Assembly (NCBI GenBank): GCA_964016885.1
Contig: OZ024743.1
Span: forward strand, 326,926,001-326,990,000
From: Eledone cirrhosa
Lineage: Eukaryota
Reading direction: 5' to 3'
Length of the DNA stretch: 64,000 nt
Position numbers and translations under genes: made by a program. Below are positions 31,968-64,000 of this stretch, piece by piece (positions within the stretch are counted from its first letter, which is position 1; the number at the start of each line of letters is the position of its first letter). Under the pieces are notes generated by a model, which was not told where the DNA came from, searched no databases, and saw only the letters and a program-made list of their open reading frames with translations.

Positions 31968-32891
31968 TTAAGGATAAAGTATTTATAAAATATAACACAA
32001 ACAATAAAAACAAAAGGAAAGAACATGATTTAAGTGACAATGGATAACGATTTAGTGGGTAAATGAATCACTCAACCATAACATTATTGGTTGTTGTTGT
32101 GGTGGTGGTGGTGATAACACATGGGGTTGTTATATAAATGGCAAAACACGATAATGGACCTATGTCAGTTTCTACGATGAGTGTTCCAGTTGTTTGATCA
32201 ATAGAACAACCAGCTCATAAAATTAAAATCTAAGTGGCTGAGCATTCCACAGACATGTGCACCCTTAATGTAATTCTCAGAGAGATTCAGCATGATGGCG
32301 TATGACATGGTTGGCCCTTTGAATTACAGTTACAGTCCATCCGAAGGGCTTCCTAATAGTTCCCATCTACCCAATTTCACTCACAAGGCTTGTGTCAACC
32401 CGATGTTATGGTAATTGACACTTGCCCAAGGTGCCACGCAGTGGAATCAAACCCAGGACCTAATGATTGCAAAGTGAACTTCTTAAACACTCCGTCATGC
32501 TGCGCTACATAGATACAGTATAGTTTAGACACCATTACAAAATAATAATTAACAAAGAAAGGGTGGGAAAGCTACGTTCTAGCTTATTTTTCTTACATAT
32601 ATATATATACATATACACAGACATACATACATATATATATACATACCTACATACCTACATACATATATATACATACATACATATACATACACATACATAC
32701 ATACCTACATACATATACATACATATACATACATATATATATACATACACACATACACATACATACATATATATATACATACATACATACATATATATAC
32801 ATACATATATACATATATATACATACATATATACATATATATACATACATACATACATATATATACATACATACATACATACATACATACA

Positions 32892-32927
<36 letters not shown>

Positions 32928-32936
32928 TATACATAT

Positions 32937-33515
32937 GGTGGCTGCCAACTCGTTTTCGAGTACAGCCACTACTTTATATCCATGTAAAAGAACCCTTACC
33001 GATACGCTGAACGAGTGTGACGTTTTAGTCCAGCCAGCAACTTGAAAACTCTGGTACAAACACTACACTTGTGACAATTATTGACACATAGTGCTGGGCC
33101 CATGGTACCATGTGACGACAAGTGTAGAGAGATCTCCAGATATAAAGCAATGCCTGTGCCGTGAAGCTTTTATAGTGAGCAAAGGCACTGCACAAAGCCA
33201 GTCCCACTCTCTTAACCAAGATGATATTTACCAAAAAGAAGAACAAGTCAACATCATTGGATACCATCAGGGTTGCAGGTGTTATATCAGAGTTTTCCTT
33301 CTCCTAGAATTCTGCCTTGACAAAAGCTAAGGGGTCATCTCTCCTGGTGATTTTGGATGGCCATTGACTCTTAAGAGCTCCTTTGGCCTTTGACAGGTTT
33401 TTTTTTTGTCCTGCAGGATGTCCAAAGTCACCCTCCTCACCAAGAAACCTTGGTGGGGTTGCCAGTTTAGTCGCCAACGACCCGACCATGAGACAGGTTG
33501 TACTGGGATACATGT

Positions 33516-33517
<2 letters not shown>
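32937..33517 (-). mobile_element. Non-coding RTE-derived bipartite element (RTE 5'UTR-like part plus RTE 3' stem-loop)
   Basis: On -, ggcgactaaactggcaacccc and ctaggagaaggaaaactctg (RTE 5'UTR-type motifs); ends ctcgaaaacgagttggcagccacc-(at)n; deleted copies at 33657..33754 and 51751..52009. Confidence 0.65.
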
Positions 33518-33555
<38 letters not shown>

Positions 33556-33622
33556 CATACATATATATATACATATATATATATACATATATACATATAT
33601 ATATACATATATGTATATATAC

Positions 33623-33656
<34 letters not shown>

Positions 33657-33798
33657 GGTGACTACCAACTCGTTTTCGAGAATTCTGTCTTGACAAAGTA
33701 ATTTCGAGAATTCTGTCTTGACAAAGGCTAAGGGGTCATCTCTCCCGGTGATTTAAGATATATATATATACATACATACATTTATATATACATATATA

Positions 33799-34650
33799 CA
33801 GAAAAAGTTGTGCATGGATACTTGAGGCGTAAAACACAGACCATAGAGGGGATAAACCACTCAAAAAGCCTGGCATGGAGTTCCGACAGGTTTATGACAT
33901 CACACCTTGAGGGATATCTCTATGCAATACAGGAATAAGAACTCCCTACCAAATATCTGCTGCACAAAAGAGGAGGGCCAGCAGCTGACAATAAATGTAG
34001 GCTATGTAAAACAAAGATCGAGGATGTAAGCCACATTGTTGCCAGCTGCGAAAGAATGTCATCTCGCTACTACCTCCCCATGAGACACGATGGGATAGCT
34101 AGAACCATCTGGAACGCACTTCGGAAAACAAAATTAACAACAAACGAGGAAGAATATATTGAGACAGATGGCACTAAGGAATACTGGTGGAACCTGAAAA
34201 TAAAAACTGCCACCAAATTAAAGCACAACCGGCCTGATATTGTAGTTTGGGACCACACATTGAAAACGTGTTCTGTTGTGGAGATCAGCTGCCCACTTGA
34301 TGTAAACGTTGTCAGAAAAATACAGGAGAAGGAGGACATCTACGGACCATTGATGAGGAGTTTACAAATCCAGTAACCAAGATACACCTTTAGCTTCATA
34401 CCCATCATTATTGGTGCTACGGGTTATATACCAACCCGCTTGGACCAAAGTATGACTGAACTTGGATTTGCGGACAAAAATCGCAGCTCCCTAATTCATA
34501 GTCTACAAATGGCTGCGATAGCTGGCACCTTCAAAATTTGCAAAACATTCTTGCGATTCAAGGGATGACAATTTCTTTTCTTTTACAACCTTGCCACCAG
34601 GAAGGTGGGCAGTCAAAAAAATATACTCGAAATTAAGAGAAAGAGATAAC
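33799..34650 (+). mobile_element. R4/Dong-like non-LTR retrotransposon 3' fragment with restriction-like endonuclease
   Basis: CRLC-x8-H-x4-C knuckle, RHD, RPDIVVWD...VVEISCP...K..EK..Y, IPIIIGATG; two in-frame stops; microsatellite on both sides. Confidence 0.85.
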
Positions 34651-34811
34651 ATACATACATACATACATATATATATATATATACATACATATATATACAT
34701 ATATACATACATATATATACATATATACATACATATATATAAATATATACATACATATATATACATATATACATACATATATATAAATATATACATACAT
34801 ATATATAAATA

Positions 34812-35950
34812 TAACTTTGAATAACTTTGAATAACTTTGAAATGTTTTGGCCAGTATTGGCCCAGGCCATGTCTAACTTAATAGCACCACCTGGCGAAGT
34901 CTTTCAATTCAGGATTTGGGCACCATGGCCCATTCGAGAAGAGAATTACTGTTTGCGGAGACATATCCGGGTGTGGGTGGTTTGTCCGGGATTACTTGGA
35001 GGAATTTGTCCAAAGACTTCTTGAATTTTGTGTGGTCAGTTTCTGTTTTGACGTGTCCTGGTGTGATGTTGAAGAGAGCAGGGCCGATTGAGGTGAAATA
35101 ATTGTGCCGTATTGTTGTTATGAGTTGCGATTTAGATTTTTGAATGGGACGGATAGCACGGGGCCCAAGCCTTGGGTGTATCTTGAAGGCGATGCCAACA
35201 TCATTTGGGCAGTGATGATGGAACATTTTCCACATCATGCAGATAATATAACGCTCACGGCGACGTTGGAGTGAGTAAAGTTTCAGGTTTTCCAATCGAC
35301 CCCAGTAGTCAAGGTCTGACATGCCATCTATCTTTTTCGTGATTGCCCTTTGAGGAGCTTCAAGTTTCATGATACTTTGTTTCGTGTGGGGAGACCACAG
35401 TGGACAACAGTATTCAAGGTGTGGTCGGGCAAAAGTAGAGAAGAGAAGGATAATGGTGCGGGAATCTCTCGACTGGAAGGTTCTGAGGATCCAGGAACAC
35501 ATTCTGCGGGCCATGTCAACTTTGCTGCTTATATGCGTGGTCCAGCTTATGTTGCTGTCCACGGTTACTCCCAAGTCTCTGATGTTGTTAGATGCCACGA
35601 GAGTTTCCCCGGAGGGAAGGGAGTACGGGAGTTTCAGAGCATCCTCTTTTCCAAAGTGGATCAGTTCGAATTTGTCTTCGTTCAGTAACATGTTGTTCTT
35701 TTCTGCCCATTGGGTAACAGCCAGTAGGTCTGACTGAAGGCTTATCCGGTCATCCACGCCATTGATGACCTTTTGGAGCTTGGAATCATCAGCGAAAATT
35801 TTAATGTTGCTGTGTTTGATGATGTCAGTGATGTCATTAATATAGATGATGAAGAGAAGTGGGCCCAACACAGTGCCTTGTGGGACCCCACTACTGACTT
35901 TGGCTGGGCTTGATTTGACTCCCTCAACTACAACATGTTGGGTTCTGTTT
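34812..35950 (-). mobile_element. Young CR1-group LINE, 5'-truncated copy 1
   Basis: [31 protein letters not shown]; 3' tail (gttattcaaa)n; nearly identical to 36788..37919. Confidence 0.95.
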
Positions 35951-35996: not shown

Positions 35997-36030
<34 letters not shown>

Positions 36031-36787: not shown

Positions 36788-39108
36788 TAACTTTGAATAA
36801 TAACTTTGAAATGTTTTGGCCAGTATTGGCCCAGGCCATGTCTAACTTAATAGCACCACCTGGCGAAGTCTTTCAATTCAGGATTTGGGCACCATGGCCC
36901 ATTCGAGAAGAGAATTACTGTTTGCGGAGACATATCCGGGTGTGGGTGGTTTGTCCGGGATTACTTGGAGGAATTTGTCCAAAGACTTCTTGAATTTTGT
37001 GTGGTCAGTTTCTGTTTTGACGTGTCCTGGTGTGATGTTGAAGAGAGCAGGGCCGATTGAGGTGAAATAATTGTGCCGTATTGTTGTTATGAGTTGCGAT
37101 TTAGATTTTTGAATGGGACGGATAGCACGGGGCCCAAGCCTTGGGTGTATCTTGAAGGCGATGCCAACATCATTTGGGCAGTGATGATGGAACATTTTCC
37201 ACATCATGCAGATAATATAACGCTCACGGCGACGTTGGAGTGAGTAAAGTTTCAGGTTTTCTAATCGACCCCAGTAGTCAAGGTCTGACATGCCATCTAT
37301 CTTTTTCGTGATTGCCCTTTGAGGAGCTTCAAGTTTCATGATACTTTGTTTCGTGTGGGGAGACCACAGTGGACAACAGTATTCAAGGTGTGGTCGGGCA
37401 AAAGTAGAGAAGAGAAGGATAATGGTGCGGGAATCTCTCGACTGGAAGGTTCTGAGGATCCAGGAACACATTCTGCGGGCCATGTCAACTTTGCTGCTTA
37501 TATGCGTGGTCCAGCTTATGTTGCTGTCCACGGTTACTCCCAAGTCTCTGATGTTGTTAGATGCCACGAGAGTTTCCCCGGAGGGAAGGGAGTACGGGAG
37601 TTTCAGAGCATCCTCTTTTCCAAAGTGGATCAGTTCGAATTTGTCTTCGTTCAGTAACATGTTGTTCTTTTCTGCCCATTGGGTAACAGCCAGTAGGTCT
37701 GACTGAAGGCTTATCCGGTCATCCACGCCATTGATGACCTTTTGGAGCTTGGAATCATCAGCGAAAATTTTAATGTTGCTGTGTTTGATGATGTCAGTGA
37801 TGTCATTAATATAGATGATGAAGAGAAGTGGGCCCAACACAGTGCCTTGTGGGACCCCACTACTGACTTTGGCTGGGCTTGATTTGACTCCCTCAACTAC
37901 AACATGTTGGGTTCTGTTTGACAGGAAGCTCTTGATCCACTGCAGCAGCTTTCCAGTGACACCAATATTGGACAGCTTTCGCAGTAGAATGTTATGATCA
38001 ACCCTGTCAAAGGCCTTGCTGAAATCAAGGTAGATAACATCAGTGTTGGAACCCTCTCCCAAGGCTCTCAAAATGTCATCAAAGTGATGCAGTAGCTGCG
38101 TCAGGCAATCCCTTCCATTACGGAATCCATGCTGGTTGGAGTTCAGCATATTGTTACTCTCAAGGAAGTGGGTCATTCGCGATCTCACCACTCGCTCAAA
38201 TACCTTAATGATATGAGAGGTGAGTGAGATTGGACGGTAATTCACGGCAAGGGATTTGTTTCCCTTTTTGAAAACTGGGACAACAGACTGGGATAGAAGG
38301 TTTTCTGGCACATATCCAGCATCCAGTGAGTTCCGCCACAGATTGGCAAGAGGAGATGCAAGTTGGTGTTGACACACCTTCAAGACACAAGCAGGGAACC
38401 TATCGGGACCTACTGCTGAATTATGCTTGATTTCCTTTATTGCCGCCAAGACATCAGGGGCGCCAAACGTTATGTCCGATAAGGTGTAATGGGGAGTAAC
38501 ATCGCCGATACAGCCCAGATCGGCCATATCAGGATTGCTGAAAACAGAGCAGTATTGTTTCTGCAGTATCTCACCCATGGTTTTAGCATTGTCTTGAAGA
38601 GTGCCATTTTCATCAATTAGAGGGCCAACAGTAGAGCCAGTGATTTTGTGTTTTTTTGCAAATGAAAAGAACACTTTGGGATTGAGTTTGATCTTCTCAA
38701 TGGCCCAGGCCTCTTCAGCTCTTCTCTGATTGTTGATGAGAGACATTATGTTGTTTTGGAGGTTATGTTTTTTAATCTCTAGTGATGAAATGGCAGTCAA
38801 GTTGATGTGTTGCTGCTGACAGTATTTCAGCTTGTTGATTTTTTTGTTCGTTCTCTTAATTTTTCTGATGAGTGTTTTTCTATTTCTAGGGATTCTGCTC
38901 TTAGATTTGTTTATAGTTCTTAATGGGGAGTGTTTAGCACATATGTTTGTAACAGTGTCCACAAATGTCTGCCAGGACTTTTTGATGTTAGTGGGTGTAT
39001 GAGTGTGCGTGAAGGACCAGTCGACATGTGCAAGATCATGACTGATCGCTTCCCAGTTTGCATTGTGGAAATCCATAGCGTCAAACGGATGGACAGGAGA
39101 GATGACAT
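36788..39108 (-). mobile_element. Young CR1-group LINE, 5'-truncated copy 2 (complete RT, open frame)
   Basis: Uninterrupted frame 39108 to 36878 with [29 protein letters not shown]. Confidence 0.96.
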
Positions 39109-39603: not shown

Positions 39604-39951
39604 CATCATCATTTCATCATCATTTCATTTTACGTCCGCTTTTTCCCTGCTTGCAAGGGTGGGACGGGAACTGATTCTGGCTTGATTTCTACAGCTGGAT
39701 GCCCTTCCTAACACCAACCTCATTTACAGTGAGTGCTGGGTGCTTTTTGGCTGTGGCACCTCCATGACCACTTTGCAGTGGAATGATATGGACCCCAGTC
39801 CCTATCATCTCATTTCTACAGCTGAGTAAACTGGAGCAATGTGAAATAAAGTGTCTTGCTCAAGGAAACAACACATCACCCGGTCTGAGAATTGAACTCA
39901 CAACCTTTCGATTGCAAGGCCAATGCTCTAACCACTAAGCCATGTGCCTCC
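39604..39951 (-). mobile_element. Full-length tRNA/CORE SINE with RTE tail
   Basis: Reverse complement of the 491..806 family with intact head and tail; microsatellite on both sides. Confidence 0.85.
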
Positions 39952-40223: not shown

Positions 40224-40803
40224 ATCATCATCATTATCACCGTTTTACGTCCGTTCTTCCACGCTAGCATGGGCTAGACGGGTTGTCCTGTTGTGGGCAG
40301 TGTCTGGTCGGCTGACCATGCCTTGCTCATACAGGAACTGATTTGGCTTGATTTCTACAGCTGGATGCCCTTCCTAACACCAACCTTATTTACAATGAGT
40401 GCTGGGTGCTTTTGTGCCGTGGCACCTCCACGACCACCTTGCAGTGGGGGGTGTGGGGGCATATTGTCTATATGCTTCAGCTTGTACCCATGGGAGGTCG
40501 GGTACTCTGTATTAGTGTGTGACACCAGAGGTCACGGTCATGTGTCATCGCCTTGGAGAGGTGTAATTGGGTAAGGTCGGCTTTTATCACCTCATCCCAG
40601 GTCATCTTGGGTCTCCCCACTCCGCGGTTTCCATCGCCTTCTAGTGCTCTGCACCTTTTTATGCAGCTGTCATCCTTCATACGCATCACATGTCCATACC
40701 AATCAACCGCCTCTCCTGCACACAGCATTTGATTCCTCTTATGCTCAGTCTCTCTCTCAATTCATTTATGCTTTGTCGTTCACGTATATTACTATTACAC
40801 ATC
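40224..40803 (-). mobile_element. RTE family A 3' end (host copy, left half)
   Basis: Reverse complement of about 42675..43300; continues at 43308. Confidence 0.92.
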
Positions 40804-43307
40804 TACGACAGTAAAGAAGAACAGATAGAGACATTTAACGTAGAAGAGAACTGGGAGTTCCTAAAAAATAACTTACTAGAGGCGACGGATGAGGTTTGTG
40901 GCTGGAGTAAGACCTCAAGCAGGAGGAGAGTGACTTGGTGGTGGAACAATAAGGTAGATGAAGCAGTCAAGGCCAAGAGACAGGCATGGAAAGAATGGAA
41001 GAACGGGGGGAGCAGGGTACATTACATAGAGACCAAGAGGGAAGCTAGGCGACAAGTATACTTAGCTAGGAGGGAAGCAGAGGATAGAAAATTCAAGCAT
41101 GTTTTACAACGTGAGGACCAGAAACAGGAGGTATTCAAGATTGCGAGGCAGTGTGTCAGAGATAGTTGTGATGTCATTGGAGAGAAGTGTATCCGGAATG
41201 ATAAAGGTGAGCTTGCCCTCACAAGTGCTGAGAAGAAAGATGCATGGAAGAGTCATTATGATAGATTACTAAATGAGGAGAATGCATGGGAAGAAGAGAC
41301 CCTACCCCACGTAGACCCTATAGAGGGACCAGCAGTACAAGTCAGCGGCAGCGTAGTAAGTAAGGCAATCAGAGATATGAAGATAGGGAAGGCAACCGGT
41401 CCATCGGGTATAGCTGCCGAGATGCTGAAGGCATCTGGGTCTGTAGGTCACACTATAACCACACGCATCGTTAACCAGGTAATACTAGAGGGGGCCATAC
41501 CAAAAGATTGGTGCAGTAGCATCATTGTCAACTGCTACAAAGGTAAAGGCGATGCACTAGATAGAGGAAACTATAGAGGTATAAAGTTGATGGACCAGGT
41601 CATGAAAGTAACAGAAAGAGTTATAGCACAGCTGATTAGGGACCGGGTGAATATAGACGAGATGCAATTTGGGTTTGTACCAGGGAAAGGCACCACTGAT
41701 GCGCTCTTCCTTGTGAGGCAATTACAGGAAAAGTACCTAGCTAAAAGTAAGCCACTCTACTTGGCATTTGTCGACCTTGAGAAAGCCTTTGACAGAGTTC
41801 CACGTGCAGTAATCTGGTGGGCTCTTAGAAAACTAGGAGTAGATGAATGGCTTGTGAAAGCGGTACAAGCCATGTATAGGGGAGCAGTCAGCAAAGTTAG
41901 GATTGGCAATGAGTATAGCGAGGAATTTAGCGTACAGGTTGGGGTCCACCAGGGCTCTGTTCTTAGCCCTCTCCTGTTCATCATAGTCCTGCAGGCAATA
42001 ACGGAGGAGTTTAAGACCGGATGCCCATGGGAACTCCTGTATGCTGATGACCTCGCACTCATAGCTGAATCTATGGTAGAACTAGAGAAGAAATTCCAAA
42101 CCTGGAAGCAGGGACTAGAGAGAAAGGGCCTCAAAGTCAACATGACAAAGACTAAGGTCCTTATAAGTAGACGAGAAAACAGAACCCAGATCCCCTCAGG
42201 GAAATGGCCTTGCTCAGTATGTAGGAAAGGTGTAGGTAGGAACTCCATTCTTTGCCCCAAATGCAAACAATGGGTACACAAGAGATGTAGCGGGATCTCA
42301 GGAAGCTTAATTAAGAATGTAGGATTCACATGCAGCAGCTGTGCTGAAACAGCAAGCAAACAGCCACAGGAAACAAGTACCACCAATCTCTGGGAGGGCC
42401 CTGTAGAAACAGTAGACAGCTTCTGCTACCTAGGTGACCGAATTAGCAACGGAGGTGGGTGCTCAGAAAGTACAATAACTAGGGTAAGAACGGGATGGAA
42501 GAAGTTTAGGGAACTACTACCACTGCTAGCTGCAAAAGGCTTCTCCCTCAGAATGAAAGGCAGACTGTATGATGCGTGTATCCGAACAGCGATGTTGCAT
42601 GGTAGTGAGACCTGGGCGCTGAAGGTGGAAGACTTACGTAGATTAGAGAGAAACGAAGCCTGCATGCTCCGATGGATGTGTAACAGTAATATACGTGAAC
42701 GACAAAGCATAAATGAATTGAGAGAGAGACTGAGCATAAGAGGAATCAAATGCTGCGTGCAGGAGAGGCGGTTACGCTGGTATGGACATGTGATGCGTAT
42801 GAAGGATGACAGCTGCATAAAAAGGTGCAGAGCACTAGAAGTTGATGGAAACCGCGGAGTGGGGAGACCCAAGATGACTTGGGATGAGGTGATAAAAGCC
42901 GACCTTACCCAACTACACCTCTCAAAGTCAATGACACACGACCGTGACTTCTGGCGTCACGCAGTAATACAGGGTACCCGTCCTCCCATGGGTACATGCT
43001 GAAGCATATAAACAATATGCCCCCCCCCCCCCACCGCAAGGTGGTCGTGGAGGTGCCACGGCAAAAAAGCACCCAGCCCACACTGTAAAGTGGACGTGTA
43101 GGCGCCACGAAAAAGCACCCAGCACTCACTGTAAATGAGGTTGGTGTTAGGAAGGGCATCCAGCTGTAGAAATCAAGCCAGATCAGTTCCTGTATGAGCA
43201 AGGCATGGTCAGCCGACCAGACACTGCCCACAACAGGACAACCCGTCTAACCCATGCTAGCGTGGAAGAACGGACGTAAAACGGTGATGATGATGATGAT
43301 GATGATG
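40804..43307 (+). mobile_element. RTE family A LINE, 5'-truncated, intact RT frame with internal PHD-type finger
   Basis: Open frame to 43002: NYRGIKLM, QFGF, DLEKAFD, HQGS, YADD, C4HC3 insert, RLRWYGHV; (gat)n tail; flanked by acatc duplication. Confidence 0.95.
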
Positions 43308-43485
43308 ACATCCATCGGAGCATGCAGGCTTCGTTTCTCTCTAATCTACGTAAGTCTTCCACCTTCAGCGCCCAGGTCTCACTGCCATGCAACATCGCTG
43401 TTCGGATACACGCATCATACAGTCTTCCTTTCATTTTGAGGGAGAAACCTTTTGCAGCTAGAACTACTACCACTGCTAGCTGCAA
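43308..43485 (-). mobile_element. RTE family A host copy, right half, with a terminal fold-back
   Basis: acatccatcggagcatg... resumes where 40803 stopped; ends ttgcagctag-N14-ctagctgcaa. Confidence 0.9.
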
Positions 43486-43514
43486 TATATATATATACAT
43501 ACATACATACGTAT

Positions 43515-43819
43515 ATCATCATCATCATCAGGTTTAGCGTCCGTGTTCCACGCTTGCATGGGTTTGGACGGGGGTTTTCCCACTTGAGGCAAGAGTGGTT
43601 GTCTTGCTCGCATAGGACTGTCTGGCGGGTTTTCTACAGTTGGATGCCCTTCCTAACACCAACCACATTTACAGTGTGGGGCTGGGAGGTTTTTACCGTG
43701 TTGCCTACACGGCCACATTACAGCGTGGACTGTCTGGCGGGTTTTCTACAGCTGGATGCCCTTCCTAACACCAACCACATTTACAGTGTGGGGCTGGGAG
43801 GTTTTTACCGTGTTGCCTA
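43515..43819 (-). mobile_element. RTE family B 3'UTR fragment
   Basis: Matches the 3'UTR of 60790..61697; shorter copies at 58431..58640 and 59517..59680. Confidence 0.88.
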
Positions 43820-47955: not shown

Positions 47956-47984
47956 TGTTTTTTAACCTTCATATCATGTCTCCC

Positions 47985-48055
47985 TATTTTATCTGACGAA
48001 AACGCAAATGTCATCTCATGATGATATTTGTTTTTGAAATGCGCATAATAAAATA
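47985..48055 (+). ncRNA. Type I minimal hammerhead ribozyme motif (Penelope pLTR-type)
   Basis: Stem I tattttat/ataaaata (8 bp); core CTGACGA 47993..47999; 16-position stem II 48000..48035 (1 mismatch, 2 G-U); GAAA 48036..48039; palindromic stem III tgcgca; AUA site, cleavage after 48047. Confidence 0.75.
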
Positions 48056-48126
48056 CTTGGAACTCTTTTCACCATCTTTTGATCTTATATTATATATACA
48101 TATATATACTTACATATATACATATA

Positions 48127-49391: not shown

Positions 49392-49867
49392 ATACATACA
49401 TATATATATTTACACATATATATATATATACATATATATACATATATATATATATACATATATATACATATATATATACATACATATATATATATTGTTA
49501 TACTTGGGGAGGGTCATATTTGTGTAATAATATTGCCAGAATTAAAAACAGAAGACACTCACTGTTTGGTTGGTTTTCGCTACTGTGTCTTTTATATCGG
49601 TTAATTTAATTTATTCGGTCCTCAATGTTACCATTGACTGACCAACGGTCAAAAATACACATACAATATAGACACAAATACATATATATAGTCTAACAAA
49701 GTTCTTTCGTTGCACATACATACATATATATATAGACATACATAAATGTATATATACATACATACATACATATATAGACATACATAAATATATATATACA
49801 TACATACATACATATATAGACATACATAAATATATATATACATATATATATATATAGACATACATAA

Positions 49868-50344: not shown

Positions 50345-51103
50345 CGGAGGAGGTTATGAACAACTTAAACTAAATAAATATGCTTTTAGCCTCGACGTTG
50401 TCTCCCTCTACACTACAGTCCCCGCTCACCCAGCTGTCGATTTATTGACGGACTGCGTGGTCGCAGAGGACATCCACTGCTACGGCCGCCACCCGACAGA
50501 CATACACCAGCTTTTGTCCTTCGCAGTAGACAACACGTACTTCACCTTCCACCACCACACATACAGACAGACAACAGGATTACCCATGGGATCCAGCCTA
50601 TCGGGCCTGCTGGCCATCACTTACATGAACCAGCTAGAATGCCGAGCCCTCAACACCTGCCATTCCCATGCCTTCTTCACCCGATATGTAGATGACATAC
50701 TCATCCTCACATCATCCCGTGAGGAGGCAGATAAAATATACACAACATTCTCCAGCATGGACGCCATATAAAGTTCAGCATAGAACACCCCGATGACCGT
50801 GGATCCCTATCCCTACTGGACTTCCAACTCAGGGTAACAGAGGAAGGCAACATCCACACCTGCTTCTATAAAAAATCCGCCAGCAGGGACCTGTTCGTAC
50901 ATTTCAGATCGGCCCTCCTACTCGGTGCCAAGTTCGGATACATAAGGAACGAACTGGCACGTATCCGTATGGCATGTACGGAGTGTCGTAGGGTGTATTG
51001 TATCAATTTTAAAGATAAGCCGGTGTTTACAGTCTTTCTTTTCATCTTCAATAATATACATGAATGGGACAACACTGTCAAAGCTAAATAGTGGGCGAGT
51101 TAA
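50345..51103 (+). mobile_element. Penelope-like element RT fragment plus pLTR remnant
   Basis: [31 protein letters not shown], then frameshifted LSLLDFQL...FYKK...VHFRSA. Confidence 0.88.
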
Positions 51104-51239
51104 TACAGAGGTTAAGGAGGTAATACATATATATATATACACATATATATACACATATATATATATATACACACGCATGTGTACATAGACACATACATAC
51201 ACATCAATATACACTCGTACAAAAATATACATACATGCA

Positions 51240-51750
51240 AAGAGATAAGCATGCTGATTGTAATTATGGCAAAAGGAAGTTAAAGTTAAAGTTACATTGT
51301 AGTAGTGATTTGAGAAATACTTGGATTTAGGATCAAGTGATGGCAGCAGCTGAGAAGGATTAAGTTTATGGGTTGATGAGGTACTTACAGACATTTGTGT
51401 GGTATAGACCTGTGAAGGCTAGAGTGTACTTAATGAGTATATTTCTGTGGTGATTTATGCAGGGTAGTGGGTATCCTAGTTTAAAGCTATGTTGTGTTGG
51501 TTCGATTCACAGAGGTTTGAATCTTATGAATTTAGTGGCAATTCTATGTCTGCAGAAGATAGATCTTTCTAACTTATTGTTAAGTAGCCTTTTTACATTT
51601 TTGAGGATATACATTAGTTCTAGATCACATAGCCTGCGTATGTGTGATTCTATATTTGCTGCTGTCGAGTATGAGAGTTTTATAGTAAATCTATTGAGTA
51701 TTTTGTGATATCTATTAGTTTAAATAATGTCGAGGGCAGTCTAGTTTTTA
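51240..51750 (-). mobile_element. Penelope-like (Neptune-type) C-terminal fragment, internally deleted
   Basis: On -, HKILNRFTIKLSYSTAANI joined to LCDLELMYIL...LLNNKLE...CRH, motifs that flank the GIY-YIG domain in such elements. Confidence 0.6.
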
Positions 51751-52010
51751 AACTCGTTTTCGAGTATGGCCACTACTTTATATCCATGTAGGAGAACTCC
51801 TACCGATGTGCTAAACGAGTGTGACTTTTTAGTCCAGCCAGCGACTTGAAAACTCTGGTACAAATACTACACCTGTGACAATTATTGACACATAGTGCTG
51901 GGCCCATGGTACCATGTGACGACATCATTGGATACCATCAGGGTTGCAGGTGTTATATCAGAGTTTTCCTTCTCCTAGAATTCTGCCTTGACAAAAGCTA
52001 AGGGGTCATA

Positions 52011-55000
52011 TACATATGAGGGCTGCCCCCTCGTTATCGAGTATGGCCATTGCACGAAGAGAAAGAAAAAAAAAAAAATAATAATAATAAATAAATAAAA
52101 AGAAAATAAAAATAAAAAAAAAAGAAATATATATATATACATATACATACACATATACACACATACATTAATAACAATAATAATAATAACAACAATAATA
52201 ATAACGACAACAACAACAATAATATACATATACATATATATATACACACACACGCACACACATAAGCATATCTACACACACACACATAAACACGATAGCA
52301 ACTAACAGCGCTGCGATCGAATGTGGCTTTTTAGCCCAGCTAATGATCTAAAATGTCTTGCACAGAGTCGGCAACCAAAACATTCACTGGGAATAGTCGG
52401 CTGTGGTTGGAGTTCGTGTTCTTTTGCATGTCGCTTGAGCCCTCCTGCTGATTTACATTCTCTACCACATGTTTGGCAAGCATGATGAGTAGCATCTCCA
52501 ACAGCAGCCTGGTAGTCAACCACTGGTCTTACTTTATGACTGCGAAGATGACTTTCGAGTCCAGCTTTGCTTAGGCAGAGTTTCGCACATACGCTGCATG
52601 TCAGCACCATAGGAGGACCCTCACCGTCTGGAAGTGCAACAGCAATGCCCTTCCTCACATCCCGCTTCACTTTCTCGTATGCGATTCGAGATGCGTCAAA
52701 GGCAACATTTCCCTCATATACAGTCTTTCTCCATTTATTACGATCAGCAGCAATATTCTCCCATGTATCAGCAGAGATGTTAACGTCTTTCAGAGAGGCT
52801 TTCAAGGAATCCTTATACCTCTATTTTGGTTTATGTGGCGGTCGTTTTCCTTTAACCAACTCTCCATAAAAGAGTTGTTTTGGTACTCTAGAATCCTTCA
52901 TTCTGGCAAGGTGACCACTCCAACAGAGTCGTTGCTTAAGCACAAGAGCTTCTATACTGTCACACATAGAGCTTTCCAAAATCTCGACATCACTGATGTG
53001 GTCCCTCCAGTGAACGCCATGGATCCGTCTGAGACACATCTGATGGAAACGCTCCAATTGCTTAAGGTGGTGTCGATATGTGACCCAGGTCTCGCAGGCA
53101 TAAAGAAGACAAGAGAGCACACATGCCCTATACACCTTTACCTTTGTCCTCCTGCATATGTCTTGCCGACCCCAGAGTCGCCTTTCTAGCTTTCCGAAAG
53201 CATCACTTGCTTTCCTAATCCTAAGTGAGATTTCACTGTCAAGGTTGTTGTATCGATTGACAGTGCTTCCCAGGTAGACAAACTGATCAACCACTCCAAG
53301 TCGTTTGCCATACACATAGATGTTTGGTTCAGTGTACTGCTTACCAGGGGCAGGTTCGTACATGACGATGGTTTTCTTGAGACTGACAGTCAAACCCAGG
53401 GCAGTGCAAGCGTCAGAAAATGCATTCAAAATGTGCTTCATATCACTCTCTGTGTGCGCTACAAGATCGCAATCATCTGCATACAAGAGGTCTCTTCTGA
53501 TTGATGTAAATACTTTTGTCTTCGCAGCAAAGCGCCTGATGTTAAATATGCTGCCTGAGGTTCGATATCGGATGTAAACACCATGCTCGCAATTCTTGAA
53601 TGCAATACAGAAAACCATTGCAAAGTATATGGCAAACAGGGTCAGTGCTGGAATATCCCCCTGTTTCACTCCATTTTTTACTGAGATAGGCTCCGACATC
53701 TTACCTCCGACATTAACCCAAGCCTTCATGTCGTCATGGAAAGATCTAACTAAAGCAAGGAACTTATCAGGGCAACCAAGTTTCTGGAGAACCTTCCATA
53801 ATGCATCTCTGTTAACAGTATCGAAAGCTTTTGTCAGATCGACAAAAACCTGATACAGATCCAAGCCTTGTTCCATGCACTTCTCCTGGAGCTGTCTAGC
53901 TGAGAAGATCATATCAGTAGTGCCGCGTCCAGCACGAAAACCAGATTGACTTTCAGGAAGAACACAATCTGCAATGTGTGTCAGCAGACGGTCCAGAAGC
54001 ACCCTACATAAAACTTTCCCTACGACAGAAAGCAATGATATACCTCTATAGTTCCCACAATCGTTCCTGTTACCCTTTCCCTTGTACAAGACCACCATTA
54101 CTGCATCTCTCCAGTCCTCAGGTATGGATTCATTAGCCCATATCCTGCCAAACAAAGAGTGAAGATGTTGCAGGAGTCTCTCACCACCATATTGTAGAAG
54201 CTCTGCATGTTTGCCATCCATACCTGGAGATCTTCCACTGTTCAGCTTCGAAATAGCCACTGCAACCTCAACAAGCGTCGGAGGTTCTGCGAGAGCTACT
54301 TTCACAGGACTTTCTGGAATGAGATTGAGGAAATCTTCACTGACGACAGACGGCTGATTCAAAAGATCATCAAAGTGCTCTCGCCACCTTCGTAGAATTC
54401 CTTGTGAGTCACGAAGAAGTTCTTTGCCATCCTTGCTGCGAAACGGTGTCACCAGAGAAGAAGATGGTCCATAAACCTCACGCAAGAGACTGTACAACAG
54501 CTTTGTGTTATTGGAATCTGACGCAGTTTGTATCTCACCAGCCTTCTCACTCCACCACTGATCCTTCACGTGATTTTACATCCCTGAGTTCCTCATGCAA
54601 CGTATTCCTCTCCTGTGGTTTTGCCGTCAAGTAGCGTAACAGAGCACGCCTCTTATCAGCCAACAAGTCTTCTATATGTACATCATTCTCATTAAACCAG
54701 TCCTGATGTTTTCTCTGCAACAATCCCAGAACACGCCTGCCTACATCATAAACCAACTTTTTAAGGGTCGGCCAATCCTCACCAAGATCTGCAGCCTGCA
54801 TCTCTTCTTCCAATGTCCTCTTCACATTTTTATCCTTAAGACGAGCAGCATTCAATCTTTTGGGCAGGGCAACACCAGGAGCCTGGATTTTATGTTTAGT
54901 GATTAGTTTTACTTTTGCGCGTACCAGGCGGTGGTCCGTCCAGCACTCAGCTCCACGAAGAACACGAACACACTGCACATCCTGTCTGTCACGCATCCTG

Positions 55001-55565
55001 ACTAGGACGTAGTCCAAAAGATGCCATTCCTTAGATGCAGGATGCATCCATGTGGTCTTGAATTTGTTCTTTTGTTGGAACATGGTGTTGGTAACACACA
55101 GATCCAGCTCCTCACACATCTGCAGCAGGAACATACCATTGCTGTTACACTTTCCCACCCCATGCCTTCCGATTACATTCCATGTGTTAAAATCCCTACC
55201 CACTCTAGCATTAAAGTCACCAAGCACGATGACTTTGTCTGCCTGAGGGATATTTCTTAAAACACCTTTCAAGGCATGGTAAAAGGACACCTTTTCCTCA
55301 TCGACAGAACTCATAGTTGGAGCATACACACTCACCAGGGTAGCATATCTTCCCTTGTCCAGCGGAATTCTCATGGACATAAGACGCTCACTAATCCCTA
55401 CTGGGAATTCTTCTAATTTATTCACAAGCACAGTCTTAACAGCAAATCCTACCCCAGCCTCTCTTCTGGTTCCTTCATCTCTTCCTTTCCAGAAGAATGT
55501 TTATTCTCCACAAAATTCCGTAAGATGACCATCTCCAGCTAGCCTCGTCTCAGATAAAGCCACGT
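52011..55565 (-). mobile_element. RTE-BovB-like LINE, near full length, disrupted, with three C-terminal C2H2-type fingers
   Basis: APE (ALSETR, VYAPT, GDFNARVG, LDY, TDH), RT (NYRGISLL, DLTKAFD, YADD), fingers in 52302..52805; frameshift near 54570, stops at 52821 and near 55502; 3' stem-loop ctcgataacgag. Confidence 0.95.
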
Positions 55566-56011
55566 AAATTTTCTAAAAATTTTTAAGGGGATCTCTTAGA
55601 AAAATTTTTTTTTCTTTTGAAGGAATTTTTTAGGAAACTTTTTATTTTTATTTTTTTTATTCTCTTAATCTCTTCTGGTTAGTTAGGTTTATTGGGGCTT
55701 ATAAGCTTTATGCGCTTATTGAGGGATTTTTTAAGGTGCTTTTACGAGATCCCAAGTCTTTTACTTTTAATGCGTAACTTATAAATTCTTTAATTTTTAA
55801 CCTTCAATCCCTAACTCTTAGGCCCTTTTCAAATTCTCTTAACTCCCTATAACCGATCCCTTTTACAACTCCTACAACTAATATAAAAGAGCCCCCTTAC
55901 AATATAGACCCCAAATATACAAGCGGAGCTGTTGATGTATACCACAATTTCAAACTGCTAATCTTGAGTGAAACGTTGATGTAAATAATGAACTTACAAT
56001 CACTTGTTATA

Positions 56012-56058
56012 TGCCTTGAAAAGTCCCACCATATGGTCGGACGAAACGGCTGTCGGCA
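56012..56058 (+). ncRNA. Type I minimal hammerhead ribozyme motif, U3-A8 variant (Penelope pLTR-type)
   Basis: Stem I tgcc/ggca; core TTGAAAA 56016..56022; stem II gtcc..ggac with inner acc/ggt; GAAA 56043..56046; 1-bp stem III c-ggct-g; GUC site, cleavage after 56054; aataaa directly after. Confidence 0.75.
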
Positions 56059-56234
56059 ATAAACTTGTTGTAATGTCATAATAGTTCCTTTGTTCTTTTT
56101 CATTAATATTTCTGCTCTGCTTATATGCATAGAGCTTAACTAGCTACCATCGCATATTTGGTAGGTCAGGCGTGATCATCGCGATTTACGTACGACCTAC
56201 CATACATCTTGCTTATACATACATATATATATAC

Positions 56235-57177: not shown

Positions 57178-57645
57178 GAAGTTGATGGAAACCGCGGAGT
57201 GGGGAGACCCAAGATGACTTGGGATGAGGTGATAAAAGCCGACCTTACCCAACTACACCTCTCAAAGTCAATGACACACGACCGTGACTTCTGGCGTCAC
57301 GCAGTAATACAGAGTACCCGACCTCCCATGGGTACATGCTGAAGCATATAAACAATATGCCCCCACACCCCTCACCGCAAGGTGGTCGTGGAGGTGCCAC
57401 GGCAAAAAAGCACCCAGCCCACACTGTAAAGTGGACGTGTAGGCACCACGAAAAAGCACCCAGCACTCACTGTAAATGAGGTTGGTGTTAGGAAGGGCAT
57501 CCAGCTGTAGAAATCAAGCCAGATCAGTTCCTGTATGAGCAAGGCATGGTCAGCCGACCAGACATGTGCCCACAACAGGACAACCCATCTAACCCATGCT
57601 AGCGTGGAAGAACGGACGTAAAACGGTGATGATGATGATGATGAT
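57176..57645 (+). mobile_element. RTE family A 3' end
   Basis: Near-identical to 42836..43307. Confidence 0.93.
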
Positions 57646-58038: not shown

Positions 58039-58776
58039 CATATATATATATACATACATATATATATACATACATATATATATACATACATACATATATA
58101 TATACGTACATATATATATATACATACATATATATATATACATACATATATATATACATACATATATATATACATAGGATTAGAATACTGGAGCGTGTTT
58201 GAGCGTGTCGGCTAATAAAAACTTTTGATGTATTAAAGGATTCTTTGTTTTACTCTATTAATATATATATACATATATATATACATACATATATATATAC
58301 ATACATATATATATACATACATACATATATACATACATATATATCTATATACATACATATATATATATATACATACATATATATATATACATACATATAT
58401 ATCTATATACATACATATATATCTATATATATCATCATCATCATCATCAGGTTTAGCGTCCGTGTTCCACGCTTGCATGGGTTTGGACGGGGGTTTTCCC
58501 ACTTGAGGCAAGAGTGGTTGTCTTGCTCGCATAGGACTGTCTGGCGGGTTTTCTACAGTTGGATGCCCTTCCTAACACCAACCACATTTACAGTGTGAGG
58601 CTAGGAGGTTTTTACCGTGTTGCCTACACGGCCACATTACATATATATCTATATACATAGATATATATATATACATATACATACATATATATATACATAT
58701 ACATACATATATATATACATATACATATATATATACATACATATATATATACATATACATATATATATACATATAC

Positions 58777-58847: not shown

Positions 58848-59215
58848 TAAACACCCACAAAATTGTTAACCATGTTGCCAACAACAACCCTGAGTGCCTT
58901 TTTGATTTCCATGTGTCTAACACACGTGGACATGCCCACAAAGTAGGAAAACAGCACAGTTCCCATGACTTTCGGAAACATTTTTTCACGCTCAGAGTTG
59001 CTGAAGCATGGAACAAACTACCTGCATCAGTTGTTAGCTGTCGAGACACTGCATCCTTTAAGGCCTCCATGCATTCCGAGATCCGCCAACACTACAGCTA
59101 ACACATACACACATGTACTTCCCTGACATTTGTGTATTATTCTATGTACTATATTGACGAGTTGTAGTGCACCTGAGCACTTTACACAATAATTTCATTA
59201 TTATTATTATTATTA
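58848..59215 (+). mobile_element. CR1-group 3' fragment (family of 24334..25021)
   Basis: Near-identical to 24675..25021; (tta)n tail. Confidence 0.9.
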
Positions 59216-59677
59216 TATATACATACACATATATATATATACATACATATATATATATACATACATACATATATATACATACATATACATACATATATAC
59301 ATATACATACATATATATATACATATACATACATATACATATACATACATACATATATACATATACGTACATATATATATACATATACGTACATATATAT
59401 ATACATATACATACATATATATATACATATACATATACATATACATACATATATATATACATATACATACATATATATATACATATACATACATATATAT
59501 ATACATATACATACATATCATCATCATCATCATCATCAGGTTTAGCGTCCGTGTTCCACGCTTGCATGGGTTTGGACGGGGGTTTTCCCACTTGAGGCAA
59601 GAGTGGTTGTCTTGCTCGCATAGGACTGTCTGGCGGGTTTTCTACAGTTAGATGCCCTTCCTAACACCAACCACATT

Positions 59678-59717
<40 letters not shown>

Positions 59718-60646: not shown

Positions 60647-60679
<33 letters not shown>

Positions 60680-60789
60680 CATATATATACATATATATAT
60701 ATATATACATATATATATACATATATATATACATATATATATACATATATATATATACATATATATATACATATATATATATATACATA

Positions 60790-61697
60790 GTGCTCTGGTG
60801 CAATAAGTGCCCACAAAATACTAGCTCCTTCAACTGCGCAGAGGGTTCTATAGAAATAGTGGACAGCTTCCGTTACCTGGGTGACAAAATCAGCAGTGGG
60901 GGAGGGTGCTCTGAAAGTACAGTAGCTAGAGTCAGAACTGGATGGAAAAAGTTCAGAGAGCTTATACCACTATTAGCCGCTAGAGGGTTCTCCCTAAAAA
61001 TGAAAAGCAGGTTATACGATGCCTGCATACGAACAGCAATGCTGCATGGCAGTGAGACCTGGGCATTGTGTGCAGAGGATATACGCAGACTAGAGAGGAA
61101 CGAAGCTTGCATGCTCCGCTGGATGTGCAATAGTAATATACGTGAACGGCAATAATGTACTCAGTAATAGAGAAGACCCGCCTTACCTAAATACAAAGTA
61201 AAAACCTACTACAGTCAGTAGGCATCTCTATCAAAACACCCCCCCGTCCCACCACCTCCACCCCATCCACACCGCCCCTTTCAATGTAAAGTTATGTTGG
61301 CCCCAAAACATCCAGGCCGAAACAAATGAGATCATGTAGGTGTCACGACAAAAAAACACACAGTCCACGCTGTAAATGTGGCCGTGTAGGCAACACGGTA
61401 AAAACCTCCCAGCCCCACACTTTAAATGTGGTTGGTGTTAGGAAGGGCATCCAGCTGTAGAAAACCCGCCAGACAGTCCACGCTGTAATGTGGCCGTGTA
61501 GGCAGCACGGTAAAAACCTCCCAGCCCCACACTGTAAATGTGGTTGGTGTTAGGAAGGGCATCCAACTGTAGAAAACCCGCTAGACAGTCCTATGCGAGC
61601 AAGACAACCACTCTTGCCTCAAGTGGGAAAACCCCCGTCCAAACCCATGCAAGCATGGAACACGGACGCTAAGCCTGATGATGATGATGATGATGAT
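60790..61697 (+). mobile_element. RTE family B 3' part with an internal deletion
   Basis: Matches 62359 onward; about 250 bp missing at 61152; complete 3'UTR and (gat)n tail. Confidence 0.92.
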
Positions 61698-61975
61698 ATA
61701 TATACACATATATATATATACACATATATATATATACACATATATATATATACACATATATATATATACACACATATATATATACACATATATATATATA
61801 CACATATATATATATACACATATATATATATACACATATATATATGTATATATATATATGTGTATATATATATATGTGTATATATATATATGTGTATATA
61901 TATATATGTGTATATATATATGTGTGTATATATATATATGTGTATATATATACATATATATATACATATATATAC

Positions 61976-62010
<35 letters not shown>

Positions 62011-62011
62011 C

Positions 62012-62045
<34 letters not shown>

Positions 62046-62084
62046 GTATGCATATATATATATGTATGCATATATATATATGTA

Positions 62085-62145
<61 letters not shown>

Positions 62146-62173
62146 ATATATGTATATATATATATATATATGT

Positions 62174-64000
62174 AAGTTCTAGTTTGTAGGAAAGAAAATA
62201 AGGCGGCGGTCCCATCGGGGAAATGGCCATGCTCAGTGTGTAGGAAAGGCATAGGTAGAAACTCCATTTTATGTCCCAAATGCAAAGTATGGGTGCATAA
62301 AAGATGTAGTGGGATCACAGGTAAGCTAACTAAGAACATAGATTTTACATGTGGCCGGTGCTCTGGTGCAATAAGTAGCAGCAAGTGCCCACAAAATACT
62401 AGCTCCTTCAACTGCGCAGAGGGTTCTATAGAAATAGTGGACAGCTTCCGTTATCTGGGTGACAAAATCAGCAGTGGGGGAGGGTGCTCTGAAAGTACAG
62501 TAGCTAGAGTCAGAACTGGATGGAAAAAGTTCAGAGAGCTTATACCACTATTAGCCGCTAGAGGGTTCTCCCTAAAAATGAAAGGCAGGTTATACGATGC
62601 CTGCATACGAACAGCAATGCTGCATGGCAGTGAGACCTGGGCATTGTGTGCAGAGGATATACGCAGACTAGAGAGGAACGAAGCTTGCATGCTCCGCTGG
62701 ATGTGCAATAGTAATATACGTGAACGGCAAAGCATAAACGAACTAAGGAAAAAATTAGAAATAAGAGGGATCAGATGTTGTTTACTCGAGAGAAGGCTAC
62801 GTTGGTACGGTCACGTGATGCGCATGAAAGACGACAGCTGTATAACAAAGTGCAGGGCAATAAAGATAGACGGTAGCCACGGAGTAGGCAGACCCAGAAA
62901 AACATCGGACGAGCTGATAAATTCCGACCTCACACGCTTACACCTCTCCAAGACAATGTCACTGGACCGAGACCTTTGGCGGTACTCAGTAATAGAGAAG
63001 ACCCGCCTTACCTAAATACAAAGTAAAAACCTACTACAGTCAGTAGGCACCTCTATCAAAACACCCCCCCGTCCCACCACCTCCACCCCACCCACACCGC
63101 CCCTTTCAATGTAAAGTTATGTTGGTCCCACAACATCCAGGCCGAAACAAATGAGATCGTGTAGGTGTCACGACAAAAAACACACAGTCCACGCTGTAAA
63201 TGTGGCCGTGTAGGCAACACGGTAAAAACCTCCCAGCCCCACACTGTAAATGTGGTTGGTGTTAGGAAGGGCATCCAGCTGTAGAAAACCCGCCAGACAG
63301 TCCACGCTGTAATGTGGCCGTGTAGGCAACACGGTAAAAACCTCCCAGCCCCACACTGTAAATGTGGTTGGTGTTAGGAAGGGCATCCAACTGTAGAAAA
63401 CCCGCCAGACAGTCCTATGCGAGCAAGACAACCACTCTTGCCTCAAACGAACTAAGGAAAAAATTAGAGATAAGAGGGATCAGATGTTGTTTACTCGAGA
63501 GAAGGCTGCGTTGGTATGGACACGTGATGCGCATGAAAGTCGATAGCTGTATAACAAAGTGCAGGGCAATAAAGATAGACGGTAGCCACGGAGTAGGCAG
63601 ACCTAGAAAAACCTGGGATGAGCTGATAAACTCCGACCTCACACACTTACACCTCACCAAGACAATGTCACTGGACCGAGACCTTTGGCGGTACTCAGTA
63701 ACAGAGAAGACCCGCCTTGCCAGTAGGCATCTCTAACAAAATACACCCCGTCCCGCCATCACACCCACCCCACCCACACCACCCCGTTCTATGTAAAGTT
63801 ATGTTGGTGCCGCGCCATCCAGGCCGAAACAAATGAGATCGTGTAGGTGTCACGACAAAAAAACACACAGTCCACGCTGTAATGTGGCCGTGTAGGCAAC
63901 ACGGTAAAAACCTCCCAGACCCACACTGTAAATGTGGTTGGTGTTAGGAAGGGCATCCAACTGTAGAAAACCTGCCAGACAGTCCTATGCGAGCAAGACA
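62174..64000 (+). mobile_element. Two head-to-tail RTE family B 3' parts (junction near 63445)
   Basis: ORF 62236..63015 (PHD insert, RLRWYGHV); the 3'UTR breaks at gcctcaa and restarts at aaacgaactaagg (equivalent to about 62736). Confidence 0.92.

What the first reader, a model, noticed from the sequence alone, without database searches (positions are those of the whole stretch)
32594..64000. 31-kb microsatellite-anchored retroelement trap: about ten families stacked in one TA/TACA locus
Seen: the sequence changes abruptly from an old-repeat landscape to an alternation of microsatellite blocks and about 25 retroelement pieces (two CR1 families, RTE A/B/C, a BovB-like and a GC-rich RTE, R4/Dong-like, Penelope-like pieces, SINEs). 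Both orientations occur and several pieces have open frames. Most pieces keep a true 3' end and break at the 5' end straight into microsatellite, as expected for target-primed insertion. Established: these families use three different endonuclease classes (APE, restriction-like, GIY-YIG). Inference: convergence on one site points to a locus property, such as fragile or cruciform (TA)n DNA offering free 3' ends, rather than one enzyme's specificity. The site may act as a self-renewing TE sink or a piRNA/siRNA-cluster-like archive.
Basis: partly seen in the sequence, partly recalled or inferred. Interest (0 to 1): 0.75.

Follow-up and report, generated by a model that had tools for sequence, protein, structure and literature searches.

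The report
Retroelement pile-up in a TA microsatellite
A long TA-rich simple repeat is split by about 29 young jumping-gene fragments; most of these families sit beside such repeats all over this genome, so the pile-up is likely a by-product of their target choice rather than a special trap, and one CR1-like family is almost never found anywhere else.

Summary
In detail: 29 retroelement pieces of 11 or more families alternate with 7.9 kb of TA/TACA repeat. The locus runs on to about 82,640 (about 50 kb). Only 14 of 29 pieces have both a true 3' end and microsatellite at the 5' side.

The 'locus property, not enzyme specificity' reading is mostly not supported. Genome-wide, families differ sharply in having a TA-type run of 20 bp or more at their end: CR1-like family A 64 of 65, R4/Dong-like 22 of 29 (strand 25:0), BovB-like RTE 17 of 24, CR1-like family B 3 of 29, background 8.9%. 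Five of 40 random 10-kb windows are as densely stacked. One part survives: CR1-A lies beside tracts of 500 bp or more in 16 of 29 cases (4.7% expected), so tract length may matter.

Microsatellite-targeted LINEs and Penelope-like elements are known, and this scan has noted similar stacks elsewhere in this genome. I did not find a CR1-group LINE tied to (TA)n in three literature searches. Assembly continuity and a piRNA role remain untested.

The parts
32594..64000 (.). TA/TACA microsatellite array split by insertions; continues past the window to about 82,640
   Evidence: TATACA 871 vs TGTATA 46 on +; shared sub-motif zone 35,950-47,562
32936..33515 (-). About 600-bp bipartite non-autonomous RTE derivative; fixed 3' end at 32,936, 5' truncated
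33656..33758 (-). Internally deleted copy of the 600-bp unit, 3' end kept
   Evidence: sequence
33801..34649 (+). R4/Dong-like LINE 3' part (zinc knuckle and restriction-like endonuclease motifs), 3' end followed by CATAC repeats
34808..35949 (-). CR1-like family A, 5'-truncated, tail kept
36790..39105 (-). CR1-like family A, 5'-truncated, 741-aa open frame with RT
39606..39950 (-). Full-length SINE with tRNA-like head and RTE-type 3' end
   Evidence: tRNA E 6e-4, 28.1 bits, just under the gathering score of 29
40225..40803 (-). RTE-A-related 3' part (88-90% to the other RTE-A copies), GAT tail; 5' side fused to the next piece
40804..43307 (+). RTE-A, 724-aa open frame (RT + PHD), GAT tail
43308..43485 (-). 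Internal RTE-A fragment without a 3' end
43510..43817 (-). RTE-C 3' end
44240..47092 (+). CR1-like family A, 921-aa open frame (partial APE + RT), tail kept; a different subfamily from the two minus-strand copies
47563..47955 (+). GC-rich RTE-like internal fragment, no 3' end
   Evidence: DUF6451, below cutoff
47956..48090 (.). Small dispersed repeat end, possibly Penelope-type; unassigned
   Evidence: 21 hits in fetched loci; no ribozyme hit
48127..49390 (+). RTE-B 3' part (RT + PHD), GAT tail
49495..49712 (.). Piece of a MITE-like repeat (label by eye); not shown to be a retroelement
50345..50975 (+). Penelope-type RT fragment, no 3' end
   Evidence: RVT_1 E 5e-14; only weak hits, to non-LINE RTs and telomerase
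50976..51123 (.). Unassigned repeat end abutting microsatellite
51204..51750 (-). Penelope-type endonuclease C-terminal remnant and downstream sequence
   Evidence: tblastn 55%, E 6e-11, to the frame at 74,003-74,599
51751..52009 (-). Deleted copy of the 600-bp unit lacking its last bases
52010..55560 (-). BovB-like RTE (APE-RT-C2H2), interrupted frame, 3' UTR carrying its own simple repeats; 5' side fused to the next piece
55561..56213 (+). Penelope-type end with a weak hammerhead-like motif at 56,011-56,060
   Evidence: E 0.043, 20.1 bits, below the gathering score of 34
57178..57644 (+). RTE-A 3' end
58177..58261 (+). Short Penelope-type end (label by eye)
   Evidence: relative in L239
58432..58640 (-). 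RTE-C 3' end
58850..59213 (+). CR1-like family B 3' end, ATT tail; this family is not TA-bound
59518..59680 (-). RTE-C 3' end
60790..61696 (+). RTE-C 3' part with an internal deletion, GAT tail
62175..63446 (+). RTE-C (PHD region), 3' end cut off by the next piece
63447..64000 (+). RTE-C variant; its tail lies just past the window (about 64,090)

Best explanation
This is one long TA/TACA microsatellite array split by about 29 young retroelement pieces, and it likely filled up because several unrelated families each nick and prime in TA or ATAC repeats wherever these occur in the genome. Shown: the family-level association with TA repeats, its strand rules, and independent insertions. Inferred: endonuclease nicking in the repeat; pairing of tails that end in AT or TA with the nicked strand; and self-renewal, because each insertion leaves repeat on both sides, so a long array keeps collecting both strict seekers (CR1-A, R4, the BovB-like RTE and its 600-bp partner) and loose ones (RTE-A/B/C, CR1-B). 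The locus is the long tail of a genome-wide process, not a dedicated trap.
For: TA-type run of 20 bp or more within 15 bp of the element end, window copies left out: CR1-A 28 of 29, 28 of 28 in a second sample whose query left out the tail, and 8 of 8 further loci read by eye; R4 22 of 29; RTE-B 18 of 29; RTE-A 4 of 16; CR1-B 3 of 29; 600-bp unit 21 of 29; RTE-C 13 of 29; BovB-like 17 of 24. Background is 8.9% of 10,000 random positions in 40 evenly spaced 10-kb stretches. Strand rules: R4 TACA 25:0; BovB-like TGTA 17:3; 600-bp unit 22:2. 5' breaks of CR1-A also fall in TA repeat (4 of 4; 8 of 9), with different sub-motifs at different loci, so the repeat is a target and not a tail. The two adjacent minus-strand CR1-A copies carry variants shared by a genome-wide subfamily and have different breakpoints, so they are not a local duplication. 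A CG-containing sub-motif runs through five successive large blocks (35,950-47,562) but occurs in 5 of 231 blocks elsewhere. Library-free stack density: focal 2-6 per 10 kb (mean 4.0), random mean 1.3 and maximum 7, with 5 of 40 at 4 or more. Literature: PMC3812793, PMC8557442, PMC4640811 (passages) and PMC6007223 (abstract, section 18).
Against: The locus is unusual in length: five consecutive 10-kb bins at that density, against 0 young islands in 11 neighbouring bins. With a library built from the locus itself, which is biased, it scores 5-12 pieces per 10 kb against a background mean of 1.1. CR1-A sits beside tracts of 500 bp or more far more often than position-weighted chance (16 of 29 vs 4.7%), which plain sequence recognition does not predict; that background rests on only 6 long tracts. 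CR1-B, at background level genome-wide, is also in the stack. Fifteen of 29 pieces do not show the clean pattern; fused and endless pieces need deletions, nested insertion or repair. The samples are the best-scoring 19-30 matches per family, not all copies, and include a few duplicated loci. No cleavage was measured. Present-day association cannot fully separate targeting from differential survival.
Confidence: 0.74

Rival explanations
1. Locus property: long (TA)n DNA forms cruciforms or breaks, and the free 3' ends would prime any retroelement, regardless of its endonuclease.
For: CR1-A is strongly biased to long tracts and inserts in both orientations (TACA:TGTA 21:8 and 19:8). A family with no TA bias (CR1-B) and several endless or fused pieces are present. 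Three endonuclease classes are represented.
Against: Family rates span 10-97%. R4, the BovB-like RTE and the 600-bp unit are strand-locked to ATAC/GTAT and use short pure runs. CR1-B is at background (p 0.48).
Confidence: 0.12
2. Passive accumulation: elements insert broadly, but copies in long microsatellites in a gene-poor, low-recombination region would survive, and arrays may expand after insertion.
For: A 35.7-kb satellite lies 35 kb upstream of the locus. The review passage in PMC3812793 gives this explanation for Drosophila Waldo-A/B. Expansion after insertion could also explain long flanks.
Against: CR1-A copies 99-100% identical to each other are already 64 of 65 in TA repeat, while CR1-B copies at 98-99% are mostly outside it. 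Strand rules are not explained by survival.
Confidence: 0.07
3. Functional archive: the stack would be transcribed as a piRNA/siRNA cluster. This can coexist with the best explanation.
For: Dense, two-stranded, multi-family, young TE content, as recalled for dual-strand piRNA clusters; recalled resemblance only.
Against: Similar density is common in this genome, so density alone does not mark a special function.
Confidence: 0.08
4. Mis-assembly: separate TA-anchored insertions were joined through their microsatellites.
For: Every long junction is a simple repeat, and uniform TACA polarity would also result from such joins.
Against: There is no N in 264 kb. A rare sub-motif is shared across five successive blocks. 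All blocks inside the window are at most 1.1 kb long, and several junctions are direct element-to-element fusions.
Confidence: 0.04

Closest known systems
Microsatellite-targeted non-LTR retrotransposons: Dong (TAA), Waldo (ACAY), Mino (AC), Kibi (TC), Koshi (TTC) (PMC3812793, passages); Togen (TG) and some HERO families (PMC4640811, passages)
   Same: 5'-truncated copies inserted into a simple repeat, with repeat on both sides; fixed strand for the R4-like family.
   Different: Here many clades share one TA/TACA array. The R4-like family uses ATAC rather than TAA. The CR1-like family tied to (TA)n is not among those listed in the passages read.
Penelope-like elements (Naiad, Neptune) with bias for (TA)n (PMC8557442, passages)
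   Same: Penelope-type RT, endonuclease remnant and a weak hammerhead-like motif lie in the same array.
   Different: Only fragments are present; the clade was not determined.
RTE-clade LINEs with microsatellite-like tails and 3' microhomology (PMC6007223, abstract and section 18); bipartite non-autonomous RTE derivatives (PMC5786205, passages)
   Same: GAT or CAT tails that run into AT/GTAT targets; a 600-bp unit with RTE 5' UTR-like and 3'-terminal parts.
   Different: The T-stretch signature was not tested here; target-site duplications cannot be read inside the repeat.
CR1 insertion preference in a waterfowl genome (PMC2612034, abstract)
   Same: A CR1 whose insertion site resembles its tail repeat.
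   Different: That is a weak 4-base bias in AT-rich DNA, not near-complete confinement to long (TA)n arrays.

Membership tests
Microsatellite-specific non-LTR retrotransposon (CR1-like family A) | Independent copies genome-wide have the same repeat at the 3' junction | tested here: met
   28 of 29, 28 of 28 and 8 of 8 vs 8.9% background
Microsatellite-specific non-LTR retrotransposon (CR1-like family A) | Repeat also at the 5' break (target, not tail) | tested here: met
   4 of 4 and 8 of 9 truncated copies
Microsatellite-specific non-LTR retrotransposon (CR1-like family A) | Endonuclease cleaves the repeat | not testable with these tools
   needs a nicking or retrotransposition assay
CR1 group | APE-RT ORF2 with a tandem-repeat tail and no C-terminal zinc knuckle | tested here: met
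   Pfam APE + RVT_1 only; tail; best PDB hits LINE-1 ORF2
CR1 group | Placement in the CR1 clade by RT phylogeny | not tested
   no named CR1 references were available; the label rests on recalled C-terminal motifs; best named homologue is an Argonauta hypothetical protein at 63%
R4/Dong clade | RT followed by zinc knuckle and restriction-like endonuclease | tested here: met
   a longer copy (L335) hits R2 proteins best, E 4e-20; zf-RVT E 9e-5; PD...E motif seen, its meaning recalled
R4/Dong clade | Strand-fixed microsatellite target | tested here: met
   TACA 25:0; the target is ATAC, not the TAA reported for Dong
R4/Dong clade | Placement in R4 by RT phylogeny | not tested
   label recalled
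Penelope-like elements | GIY-YIG endonuclease | tested here: inconclusive
   no Pfam hit; motif pattern recognised by eye at 73,991-74,599; only a C-terminal remnant in the window
Penelope-like elements | Hammerhead ribozyme in the terminal repeat | tested here: inconclusive
   one weak hit, E 0.043, at 56,011-56,060; none at 47,940-48,090
Bipartite non-autonomous RTE derivative (600-bp unit) | 5' UTR-like and 3'-terminal parts of an RTE, no ORF | tested here: met
   66% over 191 bp to the 5' end of a long BovB-like copy, E 7e-11; similar 3' hairpin and tail; the exact partner LINE was not found
piRNA cluster | Uniquely mapping small RNAs with 1U bias or ping-pong signature | not testable with these tools
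   no small-RNA data could be examined

The most novel reading that the evidence does not exclude
A young, roughly 1,000-copy CR1-group LINE finds its target by DNA shape: it inserts only in (TA)n, in either orientation, and about ten times more often than expected in tracts over 500 bp, as if it used extruded or melted TA DNA. Giant TA arrays would then be self-feeding sinks shared by several clades, and its endonuclease would be a natural probe for TA cruciforms.
Probability: 0.25. Interest if true: 0.68.

Novelty: new variant of a known kind. Interest (0 to 1): 0.38.

Why it matters
The stack itself is a common by-product in this genome. What adds value is a side-by-side series of families with graded TA preference (97% down to 10%), and a CR1-like family that is almost wholly confined to long TA arrays. 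That family gives a direct way to test whether APE-type LINEs reach microsatellites by sequence recognition, by tail pairing or by DNA structure, a mechanism that the review passage read (PMC3812793) calls not well understood. It also explains why TA-rich cephalopod-type genomes hide young LINEs from short-read assemblies (inference).

Tried and rejected
Read support: one search listed 8 runs, with no RNA holder listed. Laying Logan contigs on 40,240-43,817 and 51,660-52,062 gave only short repeat-derived pieces; no listed contig bridged a locus-specific junction, and 51,660-51,743 had no cover. This is no verdict on the assembly either way.

Rfam on the whole locus returned 318 matches; the 150 listed are all microsatellite matches to miRNA models below their gathering scores, rejected as chance. 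A DNA search with the RTE-C 3' end returned nothing, presumably because very common words are skipped; it was repeated with an upstream stretch.

Ideas rejected: local duplication of the two minus-strand CR1-A copies; the 600-bp unit as Penelope; the BovB-like element as dead cargo amplified in trans (other copies have open frames of about 1,200 aa); uniform TACA polarity as proof against mis-assembly (overlap joins would keep it too). The first BovB flank count (27 of 29) was discarded because it measured the element's own 3' UTR.

Rows dropped: RTE-A 2 of 18 (one without a 3' end, one with N); BovB-like 5 of 29 without the terminal motif, and 2 of the 24 kept matched the end of a neighbouring 600-bp unit. 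PDB search with the window's R4 piece found nothing useful. Literature searches gave no directly relevant paper; only their listings were seen. No supplements were consulted; Repbase-type element reports are not in the library and may describe TA-specific CR1 families.
Full report
Setting. The window is G000:C4:326,926,001-326,990,000 in a 3.0-Gb genome. The best named homologue of one element is an Argonauta protein at 63% identity, which suggests an octopod-like host (inference). There is no N in the 264 kb around the locus.

Observation. From 32,594, TA/CA-alternating blocks cover 7,872 bp of the remaining 31.4 kb, against 550 bp of the first 32.5 kb. The array continues to about 82,640, with a 7,456-bp unbroken tract at 64,389-71,844. 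It has one polarity: TATACA 871 vs TGTATA 46, with 21 of 22 large blocks clearly TACA on + and one mixed. I count 29 pieces in the window. They comprise CR1-like A (3), CR1-like B (1), RTE-A (4), RTE-B (1), RTE-C (6), a BovB-like RTE, a GC-rich RTE fragment, an R4-like piece, a tRNA-headed SINE, a 600-bp unit (3), a Penelope-type RT fragment, and six small Penelope-type or unassigned ends. Fourteen have a true 3' end and microsatellite at the 5' side, four are fused at the 5' side to another piece, five lack a 3' end, and six cannot be scored. APE domains are shown by Pfam. The restriction-like class is supported by R2 as best PDB hit of a longer copy. GIY-YIG is recognised by eye only. Clade names CR1, R4/Dong, BovB and Penelope rest partly on recalled motifs.

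One array, independent insertions. A CG-containing sub-motif marks five successive large blocks from 35,950 to 47,562 and only 5 of 231 blocks elsewhere. The two minus-strand CR1-A copies share variants that the plus-strand copy lacks, but these define a genome-wide subfamily, and the breakpoints and tails differ. Read-level confirmation was not obtained.

The key test: where do these families land elsewhere? I took the best genome matches to each family's end and measured the TA-type run starting within 15 bp. Runs of 20 bp or more: CR1-A 28 of 29, 28 of 28 in an independent sample and 8 of 8 more by eye; R4 22 of 29; RTE-B 18 of 29; RTE-A 4 of 16; CR1-B 3 of 29; 600-bp unit 21 of 29; RTE-C 13 of 29; BovB-like 17 of 24. 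Random positions give 8.9%, and 8.1% of 400 kb of evenly spaced genomic samples is such repeat. The families differ strongly (p 5e-11). R4 always faces TACA (25:0), while the BovB-like RTE and the 600-bp unit face TGTA on their sense strand (17:3 and 22:2). CR1-A uses both orientations (21:8, 19:8). These are samples of best matches, with a few duplicated loci; the second CR1-A search had 978 candidates.

Is this locus special? With a library made from the locus it scores 5-12 pieces per 10 kb against a background mean of 1.1 and a maximum of 9; this favours the locus. A library-free count of young repeats bounded by microsatellite on both sides gives 2-6 per 10 kb here (mean 4.0). The same count gives a mean of 3.5 in a second cluster about 100 kb downstream, 2.3 beside 30 CR1-A insertions, and 1.3 in 40 random windows, 5 of which reach 4-7. 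The density is therefore common; the 50-kb length and the load of long LINE pieces are what stand out.

What favours a DNA-structure role. Using one block definition, 16 of 29 TA-flanked CR1-A ends have 500 bp or more of repeat behind them, against 4.7% expected from position-weighted background. The second sample gave 9 of 28 by the run measure. The background rests on 6 long tracts. Long-tract preference, expansion after insertion and survival bias are not separated.

Mechanism. Shown: family-specific association, strand rules, repeat on both sides, independent events. From the literature: microsatellite-specific LINEs (PMC3812793, PMC4640811; passages), (TA)n bias of Penelope-like elements (PMC8557442; passages), and 3' pairing of CR1, L2 and RTE tails with the target (PMC6007223; abstract, section 18). 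Inferred: the tails here end in TA or AT (CR1-A, GAT, ATT, CAT tails) and would pair with a nicked TA strand; each insertion leaves target on both sides, so long arrays keep filling. An Octopus paper reports full-length RTE and Dong LINEs, with non-reference insertions for the RTE, and a microsatellite 3' UTR in an RTE (PMC9115989; passages).

Side result. The 600-bp unit is a bipartite non-autonomous RTE derivative. Its middle matches the 5' end of a long BovB-like copy (66%, E 7e-11), and it ends in a similar hairpin and tail, as described for RTE derivatives in PMC5786205 (passages). The wording and that paper came from an earlier scan note.

Novelty. Microsatellite-targeted retroelements and their stacks are a known kind, and earlier notes of this scan report similar stacks elsewhere in this genome (unchecked AI notes). 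A CR1-group LINE confined to (TA)n did not appear in searches. I saw their listings, keyword passages of PMC13343379 (no mention of microsatellites) and the abstract of PMC2612034 (a weak 4-base preference). A sequence look-up among earlier scan notes found nothing for this family. The library lacks most subscription journals and Repbase reports, and CR1 placement was not tested by phylogeny. PMC12602865 was searched by keyword and gave nothing relevant.

Verdict. The feature is real; it is mostly an expected by-product of family-level microsatellite targeting, with one worthwhile lead in the strictly TA-bound CR1-like family. Interest 0.38.

Noticed in passing
G000:C4 about 326,887,475-326,923,191 (2.8-38.5 kb upstream of the window; L015-L018): 35.7-kb satellite of a 39-bp unit (913 copies, 95% matches, almost no CpG). 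Several frames stay open for thousands of codons; one minus-strand frame reads as a Gly/Asp/Asn-rich 13-residue repeat of 5,804 aa. Satellite or giant repetitive exon not decided.
   Followed up: partly
window 3,346-5,203: 1.86-kb stretch bounded by 356-bp direct repeats that are 99% identical, with no long coding frame inside; possibly a small non-autonomous LTR-type element.
   Followed up: no
window 42,210-42,340; 48,560-48,690; 62,230-62,360: RTE-A, -B and -C carry a PHD finger (above the Pfam cutoff) within the RT-bearing frame, after the RT core motifs.
   Followed up: no
window 52,010-52,290 (minus strand): The BovB-like RTE carries a compound (TG)/(TA)/(TTA)/T-rich repeat in its 3' UTR in most copies, so it spreads microsatellite as well as landing in it.
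   Followed up: partly
window coordinates about 168,000-204,000 (L011-L014): A second RTE/SINE-rich microsatellite cluster with mixed TACA/TGTA polarity, about 100 kb downstream.
   Followed up: partly
window 40,225-43,307: Two RTE-A-type 3' parts, 88% identical, are joined 5'-to-5' with no microsatellite between them and a tail at each outer end; could be two insertions into one break.
   Followed up: no
L201 (G000:C2:365,123,457-365,133,456): A randomly chosen window holds a small stack of four 600-bp units, an R4 piece and another end in TA repeat.
   Followed up: no
window 1,526-2,101: 192-aa open frame without a Pfam hit that looks by eye like a DNA transposase fragment (recalled).
   Followed up: no
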